Shown one piece after another: positions 51,761 to 58,734 of a stretch of DNA of 64,000 nt (positions are counted from its first letter, which is position 1; every line of letters begins with the position of its first letter). The DNA is taken from contig CBDBCF010000001.1 of assembly GCA_965202985.1 (NCBI GenBank), positions 32,001 through 96,000 of the forward strand. The letters run 5' to 3'. A program made the translations under genes and the position numbers. Source of the stretch: Longimicrobiales bacterium. Its GTDB lineage: Bacteria; Gemmatimonadota; Gemmatimonadetes; Longimicrobiales; Gaopeijiaceae. The notes beneath the pieces are model-generated. The model was not told the DNA's origin. It saw only the letters and a program-made list of their open reading frames with translations, and searched no databases.

Positions 51761-52006
51761 ATGCCGCTCTCGCTCGCCCAAGCCTTGGCGACCGCAGTGG
51801 AGTGCTACCTCGCCGTCGGCATCGTCTTCGCCCCGGCGTTTGCGTGGCGGGGCGCGGTCGCGGTGGACCCGGCGGCCAAGAACGCGACCCTGGGGTTTCG
51901 CCTCTTGATCCTGCCCGGGTCGGCGGCCCTGTGGCCCTGGATGCTGGTCAAGTGGCGACGCGCATCCCGCGCGAACGCGGGGCCAAAGACGGCAAGAGAC
52001 CGTTGA
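51761..52006 (+). CDS. Small hypothetical membrane protein
   Basis: ATG after GGAGG; two hydrophobic segments, DPAAKNATLGFRLLILPG..LWP; first gene of an overlapping operon. Confidence 0.75.
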   Translation: MPLSLAQALATAVECYLAVGIVFAPAFAWRGAVAVDPAAKNATLGFRLLILPGSAALWPWMLVKWRRASRANAGPKTARDR

Positions 52007-52527
52007 GGCGCGGCCACCGGAAAGCCCACCTGCCGGCCGTCGCGGCGGCGGCCGTCGCGGCGGGCGCGCTGCTGGTCTACGGCTGGACGGTTCGCGCGTC
52101 CTGGCCGACGCCCGGGCTTGCGCCGCCGGTCGTGGGGGTCGGGACGCCCCCCGAGGGAGCCGCATGGGAGGCGATCGTGGATACGCCGGCCGGCGCGGCT
52201 CGCGTGGCCTTCCATCGCGACGGCTCGCCCGACGGCCGCGCGGGGCTGTGGGTGTCGCTGCCGCCGGCGCTGGACGCCGCCGAACCGGGCTTGGTGCTGG
52301 AAGAGGAAGGCACCCCGCCCCGGGTGCTGGGAAGCGTGACCACGGGTCCGCCGTGGCTGCCCACGCCCGACGGTCTGCCCGCGGACGGACGCTTGGTGCT
52401 GATGGACTTGGCCCGGAACCTGCGGCTGGGCGAGACGACGGTGCCCGGCGGCGTTCCCGCAACCGGTGGTACCGTGGGTCGGACCGGCTTGCCGGACACG
52501 CCCGACGAGGTCGGCAAGGCCCGATGA
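52003..52527 (+). CDS. Hypothetical membrane-anchored protein
   Basis: TTGA and ATGA overlaps with neighbours; MRRGHRKAH then one TM helix. Confidence 0.65.
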   Translation: MRRGHRKAHLPAVAAAAVAAGALLVYGWTVRASWPTPGLAPPVVGVGTPPEGAAWEAIVDTPAGAARVAFHRDGSPDGRAGLWVSLPPALDAAEPGLVLEEEGTPPRVLGSVTTGPPWLPTPDGLPADGRLVLMDLARNLRLGETTVPGGVPATGGTVGRTGLPDTPDEVGKAR

Positions 52528-55260: not shown

Positions 55261-56071
55261 CTCCGAACGCGCGCCGGCCCCGCCCGCCTACCGCCCCCAA
55301 CTTCGCGACTGGCTCCGCGCGGGCGTCCGCGTGGTCGCCGTCTTGGTCTGGACCGCGGCCATCGCCGCCGGACTGGTCGTCGCACGGGCCTTCGCGCGGT
55401 TGCGCCGCAACGGGGACGCCGCGGTCCGCGCCGCCATCCGCAGGCGCGCCATGGCGTTCTGGGGCCGCCGCGTGCTCGCCGTCTTGGGCGTTCGCAGGGC
55501 GACGAGCGGCAAGCCGCCGCCGCCGGGCGCCCTGGTCGTGTCCAACCACCTGAGCTACCTGGACATTCCGGTTCTGGCTTCGGTGCTGCCGGTCGTCTTC
55601 GTGTCCAAGGCCGAAGTGCGACGATGGCCGTTCTGGGGCTGGATGGCCACGATCGCCGGCACCGTCTTCATCGACCGGACCCGAAAGCGCGACGCATTGC
55701 GGGTCCTGGAAGGCATTGAGCGGGCGATCGGACGCGGAGACGGCGTGGTGGTCTTCCCAGAGGCCACCAGCACCGACGGCGCCACGATCTTGCCCTTCAA
55801 GGCGTCACTGCTGGAGCTGGCGGCGGCACGCCGGGCGCCGGTGTACTGGGTCACGCTGTCGTACCGCGCAACCGAAGTCGGCGTCCGCGCCCGGGACCGC
55901 GTGTGCTGGTGGGGCGACATGACGTTCGGGCAACACTTGGCGGGCCTGTGCGCGCTGCGGGGCGTGGACTGCCGGATCCGGTTCGGCGACGGCCCGATCC
56001 GCAGCGCCGACCGCAAGGCTCTGGCCTACGACCTGCGACAGGCCATGCTTCGCGAGTACGAGCCAGTGTAG
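55235..56071 (+). CDS. Lysophospholipid acyltransferase, PlsC/OlsA-like
   Basis: SNHLSYLD (HxxxxD), FVSKAEV, FIDR, FPEATS, PFKASL, VCWWGDM. Confidence 0.9.
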   Translation: MSTTPSSADSERAPAPPAYRPQLRDWLRAGVRVVAVLVWTAAIAAGLVVARAFARLRRNGDAAVRAAIRRRAMAFWGRRVLAVLGVRRATSGKPPPPGALVVSNHLSYLDIPVLASVLPVVFVSKAEVRRWPFWGWMATIAGTVFIDRTRKRDALRVLEGIERAIGRGDGVVVFPEATSTDGATILPFKASLLELAAARRAPVYWVTLSYRATEVGVRARDRVCWWGDMTFGQHLAGLCALRGVDCRIRFGDGPIRSADRKALAYDLRQAMLREYEPV

Positions 56072-58734
56072 TGAACAAACGTTTCCGCTGGCCCCGCAAG
56101 GCCGTCGTCCTTCTCGCCTACCTCGTGCTTCTGGGCGCGTCGCATGTCGTCCGGGCCTTCCGCTCGCCCCCCGCTCCCGCGCCGGACCAGAAGGTGCAGC
56201 ATGTGGAGGGCGCCCCCCCGCCGCCCCGAGGACCCGTCGCCATCGCCTACCGGGAGTGGGCGCCCGACGTCCCCTCGAATGGCGCCGGCGCACCGTCCGC
56301 CGGCGCCGAGGAACCTGCCGGCCACCCGTTGCCCGTGCTGCTGCTCCACGGAAGCCCGGGCAGCGGGTCGTCGTTCCGGCGTTTGGCCCCCGGATTCGGC
56401 GCGCACCGTCGCACGCTGGCGCCGGACCTGCCCGGATTCGGCGCTTCCACGGCCCGAGTTCCCGACTACTCGATCCGCGCCCACGCGGCGATGGCGCTCC
56501 AGCTCCTGGACTCGCTGCGAGTGGGACGGGTCCACGTGGTGGGATTCTCGCTGGGCGGGGGCGTGGCGCTGGAGATGCACCGCACCCGTCCAGACCGGCT
56601 GGCGTCGATCACCCTGCTGTCTGCGACGGGCGTCCAGGAGCACGAACTCCTGGGAGACTACCACCTGAACCGCGCGCTGCACGGCTTGCAGCTGTTCGCG
56701 TTTTGGGTCGTGGGCGAGCTGGTCCCCCACTTCGGCCTGGCCGACGGCGCCTTCCTGGGTCGAGCCTACGCCCGGAACTTCTACGACACCGACCAGCGAC
56801 CCTTGCGCACGGTCCTGCAGGAGTACGCCGGCCCCATGCTGGTGGTTCACGGGCGCCGGGACCCGCTCGTGCCGGTGGCGGCAGCGATCGAGCACCACCG
56901 CATCGTGCCCCAGGCCGAGCTCGCGCTGCTGGACGGCGATCACTTCCTGACGTTCGCTCGCCCGGAGGCGGTCGCCCCCGTCGTCCTGGACTTCGTCGCC
57001 CGGGCGGAAGCGGGCCGGACCGCCGTCCGCCGCACCGCCCTGCCGGAGCGGATTCGCGCGGCGGCGGTCCCCTTCGACGCCGCAACCGTCCCGCCGGCCA
57101 CGGGCTTCGCTCTCTGGGTGACCCTCGTCCTGATCGCAGCCGCCACCCTGGTCTCGGAAGACTTGGCCTGCATCGGGACCGGGCTCCTGGTGGTCCGCGG
57201 CGCTCTGCCCTGGCTTCCGGGCGCGGCGGCCTGCATGGCGGGGATCTTCGCGGGCGACCTGCTGCTGTACGCTGCGGGGCGACTCGTGGGGCGGCCCGTC
57301 GCGAGGGTCGCACCCGTCCGGTGGCTCGTGGGCTCCGACGACCTGGAACGCGCCTGTCGCTGGTTCGCCCGGCGAAGCGCAGCCCTGGTCCTGTGGGGCC
57401 GGTTCGTGCCGGGCACCCGCCTTCCGACGTACGTGGCGGCCGGCGTGGTGCGCCTTCCCTTCCCCGTCTTCGCGCTCTGGGCCCTGATCGCCGCCGCCGC
57501 GTGGACGCCCCTGCTGGTCGGCGCCACCACGCTCTTCGGCCAAGCGACCACCGCCTGGACCGGCGTCGAGCCGGAGCGCATCCTTCCCTGGCTGGCAGTT
57601 CTCGGCCTCGCCGTCCTGGTGGGCCTTCGCGTCGCGTTGCCCCTGGCCACGGCCGCGGGACGCCGACGGTTCGAGCGTCGGTGGGACCGCCTGCGCCGGT
57701 GGGAGTTTTGGCCCCCCTGGCTCTTCTACCTGCCGGTGGCGGCGTGGTTCTGCTGCGTGGCCCTCCGCTACCGCTCGCTGACGCTCTTCGCGGCGGCCAA
57801 CCCGGGAATCGAGCCCTTCGGCGGATTGGTCGGCGAATCCAAGTTCGGCATCCTCTCGGCCCTGGAACGCGGTCGGGTCGCGTCCGGGGCCGCCGCCGAC
57901 CGGGTCGCAAAGACTCGACTTCTGTGCCCCGCCCAGCTCGAACCCGAACGACTCCACGCCGCCGCGCTGGAGGCGGTCGCCCATGTGGGCGGGTTCCCCG
58001 TCGTCGTGAAGCCCGACGTGGGCGAGCGGGGCACGGGCGTTTCCGTGGTTCGGGACGCCGAAGGGCTAGCGAACCGGCTGGCCGACGCCAAGCACCCGCT
58101 GATCGTGCAAGAGTACGTGCCCGGCCGCGAGCTGGGGGTCTTCTACCACCGCATGCCCGGCTGGGAGCGCGGGCGAATCTTCGGAATCACCGAAAAGCGC
58201 CAACCCGTGGTCGTGGGCGACAGCCGCCGTTCCGTTGCCCGCCTGATCTTCGCGGACCGTCGGCTGCGGCACCAAGCCAAGGTGTTCGCCCGCCAGCTGG
58301 GGACGGACATGCACCGAGTCCCGGCCAAGGGCGAGCAGGTTGTCCTGCAGGAGCTGGGCAACCACTGCCTGGGCGCCGAGTTCCGCGACGGAGGGCGCAT
58401 GGAGACGCCCGCCCTGGCTCGGGCCGTGGAGGATCTGAGCCGCGGGGTCGAGGGCTTCTACTTCGGTCGCTACGACCTTCGGGGCGCGTCGTTCGGCGAC
58501 ATTCAGGCCGGGCACTTCAAGGTCGTCGAGCTGAACGGCGTCTCGTCCGAGGCCACAAACGTCTACGACCCCCGCAACTCTCTCCTCTCGGCCTACGGCA
58601 ACTTGTTCCGCCAATGGTCCCTGGCGTTTCGCACCGGCGCCGCCAACCGAACTCGCGGCGCGAAGCCGCCGGGCCTCTCGGCGGTCGCCCGAGTGCTCGT
58701 CCGGCATGCGAGGCGTCGCGTCAGTTGTTACTGA
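56071..58734 (+). CDS. Alpha/beta hydrolase - DedA/VTT - ATP-grasp triple fusion
   Basis: TAGTG overlap. Hydrolase: LLHGSPG, GFSLGG, GRRDPLVP, GDHF. DedA: SEDLACIG, GD, RFVPGTR. ATP-grasp: WEFWP, KPDVGERGTGV, QEYVPG, GRYDLR, VELNG. Confidence 0.9.
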   Translation: MNKRFRWPRKAVVLLAYLVLLGASHVVRAFRSPPAPAPDQKVQHVEGAPPPPRGPVAIAYREWAPDVPSNGAGAPSAGAEEPAGHPLPVLLLHGSPGSGSSFRRLAPGFGAHRRTLAPDLPGFGASTARVPDYSIRAHAAMALQLLDSLRVGRVHVVGFSLGGGVALEMHRTRPDRLASITLLSATGVQEHELLGDYHLNRALHGLQLFAFWVVGELVPHFGLADGAFLGRAYARNFYDTDQRPLRTVLQEYAGPMLVVHGRRDPLVPVAAAIEHHRIVPQAELALLDGDHFLTFARPEAVAPVVLDFVARAEAGRTAVRRTALPERIRAAAVPFDAATVPPATGFALWVTLVLIAAATLVSEDLACIGTGLLVVRGALPWLPGAAACMAGIFAGDLLLYAAGRLVGRPVARVAPVRWLVGSDDLERACRWFARRSAALVLWGRFVPGTRLPTYVAAGVVRLPFPVFALWALIAAAAWTPLLVGATTLFGQATTAWTGVEPERILPWLAVLGLAVLVGLRVALPLATAAGRRRFERRWDRLRRWEFWPPWLFYLPVAAWFCCVALRYRSLTLFAAANPGIEPFGGLVGESKFGILSALERGRVASGAAADRVAKTRLLCPAQLEPERLHAAALEAVAHVGGFPVVVKPDVGERGTGVSVVRDAEGLANRLADAKHPLIVQEYVPGRELGVFYHRMPGWERGRIFGITEKRQPVVVGDSRRSVARLIFADRRLRHQAKVFARQLGTDMHRVPAKGEQVVLQELGNHCLGAEFRDGGRMETPALARAVEDLSRGVEGFYFGRYDLRGASFGDIQAGHFKVVELNGVSSEATNVYDPRNSLLSAYGNLFRQWSLAFRTGAANRTRGAKPPGLSAVARVLVRHARRRVSCY

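What the first reader, a model, noticed from the sequence alone, without database searches (positions are those of the whole stretch)
51761..58734. Seven-gene overlapping operon: candidate undescribed peptido/amino-lipid synthesis, flipping and redox-tailoring system
Seen: seven consecutive + strand CDSs, each overlapping the next (TTGA, ATGA, GTGA, TTGA, 26 bp, TAGTG), with an RBS at the first. Order: small membrane protein, anchored hypothetical, heme-b TM/Rieske fusion, Cys/His exported protein, OlsB-like GNAT, OlsA/PlsC-like acyltransferase, hydrolase-DedA-ATP-grasp fusion. Known: OlsB + OlsA make ornithine lipid, ATP-grasp enzymes form amide bonds, and DedA proteins act as lipid or undecaprenyl-phosphate flippases. 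Inference: the operon builds an amino-acid lipid, extends its head group into a peptide, moves it across the membrane and modifies it oxidatively. I know of no characterised pathway with this composition.
Basis: partly seen in the sequence, partly recalled or inferred. Interest (0 to 1): 0.8.

Follow-up and report, generated by a model that had tools for sequence, protein, structure and literature searches.

The report
Aminolipid pathway coupled to electron-export complex
Seven overlapping genes join two unstudied modules, enzymes that likely build, extend and flip an amino-acid membrane lipid and a membrane complex predicted to carry electrons out to the periplasm, and in four bacterial phyla the electron module is found almost only in genomes that also carry the lipid ligase, which suggests a new envelope-maintenance pathway.

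Summary
The seven genes and all six overlaps are real. They form two modules. B (54307-58734): OlsB-like and OlsA-like acyltransferases plus a hydrolase-DedA-ATP-grasp fusion with intact catalytic residues. Relatives usually add DinB, NRDE/TANGO2, DoxX and YHS genes, not found in this 92%-complete genome. A (51761-54310): a di-heme/Rieske membrane protein, a membrane-anchored double-OB protein with an invariant Cys-His-Cys-Cys site, a DM13-like protein and a small membrane protein. Folding supports a Rieske-protein/OB-protein complex (0.71, best control 0.00), and fused forms exist. The scan found each module before on other DNA; their coupling is new here. Across four phyla, 56 of 58 genomes with module A carry the ATP-grasp (base rate 109 of 750; control gene 4 of 28), although only about a third have them adjacent. 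Against: kin are not independent, and 0 of 80 Rhizobium-seeded module A loci have lipid genes nearby. No oxygenase domain is present, so A more likely exports electrons for repair than oxidises the lipid. Substrates and products are unknown. Ten literature searches found no description of this gene set.

The parts
51748..51753 (+). Shine-Dalgarno-like GGAGGA, 7 bases before the first ATG
   Evidence: sequence
51761..52006 (+). Gene 1 (module A): 81-aa small membrane protein, no Pfam family
   Evidence: first gene of the quartet in relatives; third-position-biased substitutions
52003..52527 (+). Gene 2 (module A): 174-aa protein, N-terminal membrane helix plus a beta domain, likely periplasmic and DM13-like; no conserved Cys, fast-evolving
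   Evidence: the positional counterpart in L003 (19% identical to gene 2) matches a DM13 cluster at TM 0.52, a lead only
52524..53600 (+). Gene 3 (module A): six-helix ferric-reductase/MsrQ-like domain (invariant H86, H98, H152, H168, H181) fused to a C-terminal Rieske domain (C276, H278, C295, H298) predicted to be cytoplasmic
53597..54310 (+). Gene 4 (module A): membrane anchor plus two OB-type barrels predicted to be periplasmic, the second with invariant C148, H161, C164, C168 and M153; predicted partner of gene 3
54307..55260 (+). Gene 5 (module B): OlsB-like GNAT N-acyltransferase (PF13444), the only one of this family found in the genome; amino-acid substrate not determined
55235..56071 (+). 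Gene 6 (module B): OlsA-like O-acyltransferase (PF01553, NHLSYLD motif)
56071..58734 (+). Gene 7 (module B): N-terminal anchor, alpha/beta hydrolase (S160, D264, H291; predicted periplasmic), DedA/VTT domain (E363, D364, D396, R444, P447, R450), membrane helices, and an ATP-grasp ligase nearest to cyanophycin synthetase (K647, E687, K709, D802, E820, N822; predicted cytoplasmic)

Best explanation
The operon joins two uncharacterised modules that likely serve one envelope function: module B likely makes an amino-acid lipid, extends its head group and flips it outward, and module A is predicted to form a membrane complex that would carry electrons to the periplasm to keep that lipid or its machinery reduced. 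Steps: (1) the OlsB-like enzyme N-acylates an amino acid, most probably ornithine, and the OlsA-like enzyme adds the second chain (inferred from family; substrate untested); (2) the membrane-tethered ATP-grasp domain activates the free head-group carboxyl as an acyl phosphate and joins an amine (catalytic residues shown, reaction inferred, amine unknown); (3) the DedA domain flips the product and the periplasmic serine hydrolase trims or turns it over (inferred; topology predicted); (4) electrons pass from the cytoplasmic Rieske cluster through two b hemes to the Cys-His-Cys-Cys site of gene 4 docked on the outer face (ligand residues shown, complex predicted, direction inferred from the MsrQ/ferric-reductase family); (5) the final acceptor is tied to module B (inferred from co-occurrence only). 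My odds for the pieces: B makes or modifies an aminolipid 0.7; A is an outward electron-transfer complex 0.85; A and B are functionally tied 0.65; A acts directly on the lipid 0.3.
For: Conserved order quartet-OlsB-OlsA-(DinB-NRDE)-fusion in 21 of 48 loci with at least 7 kb upstream, under record titles that include Gemmatimonadota and Deferribacteres, and variants lacking only OlsA in others such as an Acidobacteriota record. Whole-genome nesting with centre genomes: full-length gene 4 occurs with the ATP-grasp in 22 of 22, 16 of 16, 11 of 11 and 10 of 12 genomes, where the ATP-grasp is in 23 of 201, 25 of 201, 49 of 201 and 16 of 151 (96/97). Without the four centre genomes this is 56 of 58 against 109 of 750. 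39 of the 59 co-occurrences are not adjacent; four split genomes were inspected and have other genes around the quartet. Split quartets are scattered among adjacent ones in a tree. Controls: single-domain relatives of gene 4 co-occur with the ATP-grasp in 0 of 17 genomes; a neighbouring cytochrome c gene in 4 of 28. Gene 3/gene 4 complex: score 0.71, best of 3 controls 0.00, a mark reached by 116 of 157 solved complexes and 2 of 215 mismatched pairs (roughly, as my own alignments were used), runs agreeing in at least 93% of contacts, partner pLDDT at least 84; the interface includes gene 4 residues 151-171, which hold H161, C164 and C168. 8 of the best 150 representatives are gene 3-gene 4 fusions or fragments of them. 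Catalytic residues are invariant in 63 aligned fusions. The ATP-grasp module sits with an OlsF-sized GNAT gene in Vibrio aquimaris and Photobacterium and with an OlsB-like gene in Variovorax.
Against: 0 of 80 metagenome loci seeded with the Rhizobium gene 4 have OlsB, OlsA, DedA, ATP-grasp, DinB or NRDE hits (only 28 reach 5 kb downstream; five carry weak generic hydrolase hits). No plasmid record holds both modules (5 with gene 4, 29 with the ATP-grasp). These quartets form their own clade and their whole genomes could not be searched. The nesting is one-way: 54 of 113 ATP-grasp genomes lack module A. Kin are not independent: 10 of the 11 third-phylum cases fall among 26 fused-type genomes that look like one clade, and the split Gemmatimonadota cases come from three genera. 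Two planctomycete genomes have gene 4 without an ATP-grasp match. The ATP-grasp stands without adjacent acyltransferases in Paracoccus, Azospirillum, Komagataeibacter, Salinivibrio and Flavobacterium-type loci. Both modules also sit near stress-type genes (ECF sigma factors, AhpC/TSA, chlorite dismutase, YHS), so shared regulation alone could explain the pattern. Genes 5 and 6 score 127 and 140 bits against cut-offs of 320 and 300. No electron donor for the Rieske domain was found in this genome. No lipid data were found.
Confidence: 0.45

Rival explanations
1. Two independent envelope-stress modules share a regulon and a lifestyle. A is an MsrPQ-like periplasmic repair system for proteins or metal sites, B remodels an aminolipid, and they are clustered only for co-expression.
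For: Module A is a stable unit without lipid genes in 80 of 80 Rhizobium-seeded loci. Two-thirds of co-occurrences are not adjacent. ECF sigma/anti-sigma, AhpC/TSA, YHS and other Rieske oxidoreductases flank both modules.
Against: Independent modules would not be expected to nest 56 of 58 against a 15% base rate across four phyla while two controls fall at or below base rate. Proteobacterial genomes were not tested whole, so their independence is not shown either.
Confidence: 0.3
2. One reading: module A oxidises (hydroxylates or desaturates) the flipped lipid, with gene 4 as a new metal oxidase fed by the heme/Rieske wire.
For: Operonic coupling; a four-ligand Cys/His site of unknown chemistry at the membrane surface. 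In Variovorax a heme-oxygenase-like di-iron gene lies upstream of the ATP-grasp and OlsB-like genes, and in Komagataeibacter beside the ATP-grasp.
Against: No oxygenase, desaturase or 2-oxoglutarate dioxygenase domain is encoded. The described ornithine-lipid hydroxylases belong to those families (PMC12971839 section 6). Gene 4 is two OB barrels.
Confidence: 0.1
3. Gene 7 is a salvage or second synthesis route. The ATP-grasp activates a free fatty acid and re-forms the N-acyl amino acid, while the hydrolase (and NRDE in relatives) breaks down or re-acylates damaged aminolipid, like OlsH/OlsI.
For: An ATP-grasp route to acyl-histidine and an alpha/beta-hydrolase O-acyltransferase (OlsI) are described. 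ATP-grasp, hydrolase and VTT genes cluster without OlsBA in Paracoccus.
Against: It would duplicate genes 5 and 6. The hydrolase is predicted to be on the opposite side from the ligase. Two genomes that lack OlsA at the locus keep a close OlsA elsewhere.
Confidence: 0.1
4. The ATP-grasp makes a soluble thiol peptide (glutathione-like) used by DinB-type transferases, and the lipid genes are bystanders.
For: Nearest solved relatives are cyanophycin synthetase and an entry named glutathione synthase (E 2.5e-4, 9.3e-4). DinB with four conserved His is in 45 of 80 loci. That DinB proteins use small thiols is recalled, not tested.
Against: The ligase is fused to or beside DedA and preceded by membrane helices. 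This genome keeps OlsB/OlsA and has no DinB of that family.
Confidence: 0.05

Closest known systems
OlsB/OlsA ornithine-lipid pathway, with OlsF and the modifiers OlsC, OlsD, OlsE, OlsG (PMC12971839, sections 6 part 1 and 10 read)
   Same: Adjacent PF13444 N-acyltransferase and PF01553 O-acyltransferase in olsB-olsA order; best NCBIfam matches are OlsB and OlsA.
   Different: Both score far below the curated cut-offs. No described pathway includes an ATP-grasp, DedA, hydrolase or electron-export module.
Orphan ATP-dependent taurine transferase that makes cerilipin; unnamed serine-adding step of flavolipin
   Same: ATP-dependent amide formation on the head-group carboxyl is the reaction an ATP-grasp could do. 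The 2026 review says the taurine-transfer gene is unknown. The family occurs in Komagataeibacter and Gluconacetobacter.
MsrPQ (YedYZ) and ferric-reductase-domain electron exporters
   Same: Six-helix heme-b domain (PF01794 above cut-off; MsrQ model 28 bits against 130) with a periplasmic partner.
   Different: Fused cytoplasmic Rieske domain; the partner is a double-OB Cys/His protein, not a molybdoenzyme; two further small membrane proteins.
MprF with its periplasmic hydrolase AcvB (comparison taken from an earlier scan note; biology recalled)
   Same: Inner synthase, flippase and outer hydrolase logic.
   Different: No homology found: ATP-grasp instead of a tRNA-dependent transferase, DedA instead of the MprF flippase, and an aminolipid rather than phosphatidylglycerol as likely substrate.
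Vibrio cholerae vca0646-0649 (VCA0646 is a functional OlsF; PMC12186959 and PMC11573629, passages read)
   Same: An ornithine-lipid synthase at the end of an operon of unknown function. In V. aquimaris an OlsF-sized gene ends DedA-ATP-grasp-DinB-NRDE-YHS-DoxX.
   Different: I did not see the V. cholerae sequences, so orthology of vca0647-0649 to this module is untested. No module A was seen at the V. aquimaris locus.

Membership tests
OlsB/OlsA ornithine-lipid pathway | PF13444 N-acyltransferase next to a PF01553 O-acyltransferase | tested here: met
   (99 and 85 bits, above cut-offs)
OlsB/OlsA ornithine-lipid pathway | Score above the curated OlsB and OlsA equivalog cut-offs | tested here: not met
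   126.6 vs 320 and 117.6 vs 350; 140.1 and 136 vs 300 (models built on Brucella and Rhodobacter proteins)
OlsB/OlsA ornithine-lipid pathway | Ornithine is the acylated amino acid | not testable with these tools
   needs lipidomics; homologues also use lysine, glutamine or glycine
ATP-grasp amide ligase | ATP-binding lysines and C-terminal E-x-N metal motif conserved | tested here: met
   K647, E687, K709, D802, E820, N822 invariant in 63 sequences; cyanophycin synthetase best PDB sequence hit, E 2.5e-4
ATP-grasp amide ligase | Curated Pfam score or a structural match of the domain | tested here: inconclusive
   five ATP-grasp-clan models hit below cut-off; the whole-protein fold search was filled by the hydrolase domain
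DedA/VTT lipid transporter | VTT domain above cut-off with acidic and F/Y-x-P-x-x-R motifs | tested here: met
   52.3 vs 33.9 bits; E363, D364, D396, R444, P447, R450 invariant
DedA/VTT lipid transporter | UptA-type undecaprenyl-phosphate transporter subfamily | tested here: not met
   41 vs 250 bits
Alpha/beta serine hydrolase | Ser-Asp-His triad and oxyanion motif | tested here: met
   S160, D264, H291 and HGSP conserved; esterase fold, TM 0.71 by target
MsrPQ | Heme-b membrane domain with conserved His ligands | tested here: met
   PF01794 39.5 vs 28 bits; five invariant His
MsrPQ | MsrQ equivalog score and an adjacent MsrP molybdoenzyme | tested here: not met
   28.2 vs 130 bits; the neighbours are a double-OB protein and a DM13-like protein
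Rieske oxygenase or lipid hydroxylase | Catalytic mononuclear-iron, di-iron or 2-oxoglutarate domain in the operon | tested here: not met
   no such Pfam or NCBIfam domain in genes 1-7; monooxygenase model hit covers the Rieske part only
DM13 domain (gene 2) | DM13 fold or PF10517 match | tested here: inconclusive
   no Pfam hit; Atlas model of a distant counterpart aligns at TM 0.52
Cerilipin taurine transferase | Present in Gluconobacter cerinus and transfers taurine to ornithine lipid with ATP | not testable with these tools

The most novel reading that the evidence does not exclude
The system makes a redox-active aminolipid, a membrane-anchored counterpart of glutathione: the cyanophycin/glutathione-synthetase-like ligase adds a sulfur-bearing amine to the aminolipid head, DedA exposes it to the periplasm where it absorbs oxidants, and the Rieske-heme-OB complex re-reduces it with cytoplasmic electrons, while the hydrolase (with DinB and the TANGO2-like NRDE in relatives) removes spent lipid. 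The same ligase family could include the orphan cerilipin enzyme and would give bacterial TANGO2 proteins a lipid-amidase role.
Probability: 0.12. Interest if true: 0.92.

Novelty: new variant of a known kind. Interest (0 to 1): 0.66.

Why it matters
Aminolipid head-group extension has orphan chemistry: a 2026 review lists the ATP-dependent taurine transfer as gene-less and names no enzyme for the serine of flavolipin in the section read. This operon puts a membrane-tethered amide ligase, a flippase domain and both acyltransferases in three genes, so one expression experiment could name such an enzyme and show how aminolipids cross the inner membrane. The nesting of an unstudied electron-export complex within ligase-bearing genomes gives that complex a testable client. 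This lineage lacks the DinB, NRDE, DoxX and YHS genes, which makes it a minimal version for reconstitution.

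Tried and rejected
Ten literature searches of the held library found no paper describing this gene set: 'ornithine lipid'+'ATP-grasp' gave 1 review, where the term is in a reference title; 'DedA'+'ATP-grasp' 3 unrelated-looking listings, not opened; 'TANGO2'+'DinB' 0; the YHS/DoxX/DinB/NRDE, olsB/olsA/Rieske/DedA and Pyrinomonas lipid searches 0. 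Subscription papers are largely missing and no supplements were read; supplementary tables could list these genes. The Shewanella TANGO2 paper (PMC10470608, passages) shows a different neighbour and gave no lead. Cerilipin link: not shown. 'OlsA is dispensable': rejected, since two of the loci lacking it keep a close copy elsewhere. No solved-structure sequence match for gene 4; fold matches are generic OB barrels with Z up to 7.6 and show no function. No sigma-70 promoter or terminator upstream and no strong shared upstream motif in 12 aligned leaders. Rows dropped before counts: one weak gene 4 hit with stops (G085), 35 genomes with only weak ATP-grasp hits, 17 single-domain relatives and one half match (G658, which also lacks the ATP-grasp); 14 loci left out of the tree as near-duplicates or repeats and two-thirds of the metagenome loci thinned. 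Proteobacterial whole genomes could not be reached. The hypergeometric P values ignore kinship and are not relied on. The upstream acyl-CoA synthetase and sodium symporter genes are neighbours only in close relatives and were excluded.

Full report
Observation. The seven frames are open and overlap exactly as described: 4, 4, 4, 4, 26 and 1 base, with GGAGGA before the first start. Codon-position GC and substitution patterns against relatives show that the unannotated genes are coding. Each gene is single-copy in the genome, which is 3.86 Mb and 92% complete. The closest relatives (58-65% identity for gene 7) are records titled Longimicrobiales or Gemmatimonadota, so I place the window there by inference.

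Module B. Gene 5 is a PF13444 GNAT and gene 6 a PF01553 acyltransferase; their best curated models are OlsB and OlsA, well under cut-off. Gene 7 folds with confidence (pLDDT 88.8) into an anchor helix, an esterase-type hydrolase, a DedA domain, further membrane helices and an ATP-grasp domain whose nearest solved relative by sequence is cyanophycin synthetase. The hydrolase triad, the DedA motifs and the ligase residues are invariant in 63 sequences. Charge bias around the membrane helices puts the hydrolase outside and the ligase inside (a prediction). Among the best 80 of 352 related stretches, OlsB-like genes are in 66, OlsA-like in 66, DinB in 45, NRDE/TANGO2 in 35 and DoxX in 19; many loci are cut by contig ends. 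None of those accessory families was found in this genome, so the window holds a reduced form, shared by 13 of 48 loci with at least 7 kb upstream. In the third phylum tested (Bacteroidota by protein likeness, an inference) all 26 genomes with the long fusion have an OlsB-like gene within about 5 kb. In V. aquimaris the module ends in a 585-aa gene with a C-terminal GNAT domain, the OlsF layout. The ligase also occurs without adjacent acyltransferases in Paracoccus, Azospirillum, Komagataeibacter, Salinivibrio and Flavobacterium-type loci.

Module A. Gene 3 has six membrane helices with five invariant histidines and an intact Rieske motif on the predicted cytoplasmic side. Gene 4 is an anchor plus two OB barrels (pLDDT 88.5) with invariant C148, H161, C164 and C168; the Cys/His pattern is present in 150 of 150 listed representatives of a family with 1216 clusters at E 1e-30. 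Complex folding supports binding of gene 4 to gene 3: 0.71 against a best control of 0.00, a mark reached by 116 of 157 solved complexes and 2 of 215 mismatched pairs (roughly, with my own alignments), at least 93% contact agreement and partner pLDDT at least 84. The contacts include gene 4 residues 151-171 and the outer loops of gene 3. This supports binding; it does not show it. Eight of the 150 representatives carry gene 3 domains fused to gene 4; some could be frameshift artefacts of overlapping genes. Gene 2 is an anchored beta domain with a weak DM13 likeness seen through a distant counterpart. No oxygenase or desaturase domain is present.

Are the modules linked? Starting from the ligase, the quartet is adjacent in 24 of 48 informative loci. 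Starting from whole genomes, full-length gene 4 co-occurs with the ligase in 22 of 22 (own phylum; ligase in 23 of 201), 16 of 16 (phylum of an Acidobacteriota record; 25 of 201), 11 of 11 (49 of 201) and 10 of 12 (phylum of a Planctomycetota record; 16 of 151) (96/97). Without the four centre genomes this is 56 of 58 against 109 of 750. Only 20 of the 59 co-occurrences are within about 6.5 kb. Four split genomes were inspected and have other genes around the quartet, and split forms are scattered among adjacent ones in a tree with weak deep support. Two controls behave differently: single-domain relatives of gene 4, 0 of 17; a neighbouring cytochrome c gene, 4 of 28. The dependence is one-way, as expected for an accessory: 54 of 113 ligase genomes have no module A.

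Against. Genomes are related: 10 of the 11 third-phylum cases lie among the 26 fused-type genomes, and the split own-phylum cases come from three genera, so independent events may number only around ten (my estimate). A separate clade of quartets seeded from Rhizobium shows no module B gene in 80 of 80 loci, of which 28 reach 5 kb downstream, and no plasmid record carries both. Whether those organisms hold the ligase elsewhere could not be tested. Both modules also keep company with stress-type genes, so co-regulation without a shared substrate remains a strong rival.

Mechanism. I commit to: aminolipid synthesis (genes 5, 6), ATP-dependent amide extension of the head group, flipping and outer trimming (gene 7), and outward electron delivery (genes 1-4) that maintains this lipid or its machinery. 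Shown: genes, residues, order, co-occurrence. Predicted: folds, topology, the gene 3/gene 4 complex. Inferred: every reaction, the direction of electron flow (from the MsrQ and ferric-reductase families, recalled) and the acceptor. Confidence 0.45; co-regulated independent modules 0.30; oxidative tailoring 0.10; salvage route 0.10; soluble thiol 0.05.

Known and new. A 2026 review (PMC12971839: passages, section 6 part 1 and section 10 read) lists three ornithine-lipid routes and five modifications, none with these extra genes, and calls the ATP-dependent taurine transferase gene unknown. PMC11631085 (passages) cites an ATP-grasp route to acyl-histidine. PMC12186959 and PMC11573629 (passages) describe V. 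cholerae vca0646-0649 as a four-gene operon whose last gene is an ornithine-lipid synthase and state that the proteins' functions were unknown; its orthology to this module comes from an earlier scan note and was not checked on sequence. Ten searches found no description of the gene set, with the limits given under Tried and rejected. The scan had noted the fusion, the accessory genes and the quartet separately on other DNA; a word search for their coupling returned nothing. These notes are not counted as support.

Verdict. Real and unstudied; best classed as a new variant of the aminolipid pathways with an undescribed ligase-flippase step and an accessory electron-export complex. Interest 0.66. 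The boldest reading left open, a membrane-anchored redox buffer lipid recycled by the complex, has probability about 0.12.

Noticed in passing
window 58735-62060: A lower-GC block (0.61 against 0.72 for the operon) with a polysaccharide-export SLBB gene (58721-61366, - strand) and a chain-length-regulator-like frame. It converges on gene 7 and overlaps its end; several relatives have the next conserved gene much closer, so it looks like an insertion.
   Followed up: partly
L005, L010, L015, L046, L051, L063, L071, L073, L095, L096: A Rieske + NADPH-dependent FMN reductase fusion follows the module in 10 loci, a candidate electron donor; not found in this genome.
   Followed up: partly
L024, L034, L040, L054 and 13 metagenome loci: A roughly 540-aa protein with an N-terminal Rieske domain lies next to the quartet; its glutamate-synthase-like label is recalled, not tested.
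   Followed up: no
L046:6554-7100, L047:5101-5800, L034:9145-9700: Decaying copies: quartet remnants in L046, a fragmented gene 3 in L047, and a split OlsB with OlsA missing in L034.
   Followed up: no
L085:6128-9914 and L083:6073-9011: In Variovorax and Komagataeibacter the ATP-grasp lies beside a heme-oxygenase-like di-iron gene; Komagataeibacter has a methyltransferase between them and Variovorax an OlsB-like gene after the ligase.
   Followed up: partly
G285:C6:16759-17034 and 16 similar matches: A stand-alone single-OB family of mostly 130-165 aa matches the Cys/His half of gene 4 and occurs in genomes without the ATP-grasp.
   Followed up: no
L222:7145-11600: Flavobacterium-type arrangement: Crp-like regulator, AhpC/TSA-like, YHS-like, DoxX, DinB, NRDE, stand-alone ATP-grasp, with no acyltransferase nearby (regulator, AhpC and YHS labels by recalled likeness).
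   Followed up: partly
window 43429-47474, - strand: A multiheme cytochrome/TPR gene and a multi-domain cytochrome c gene; the latter served as the control.
   Followed up: partly
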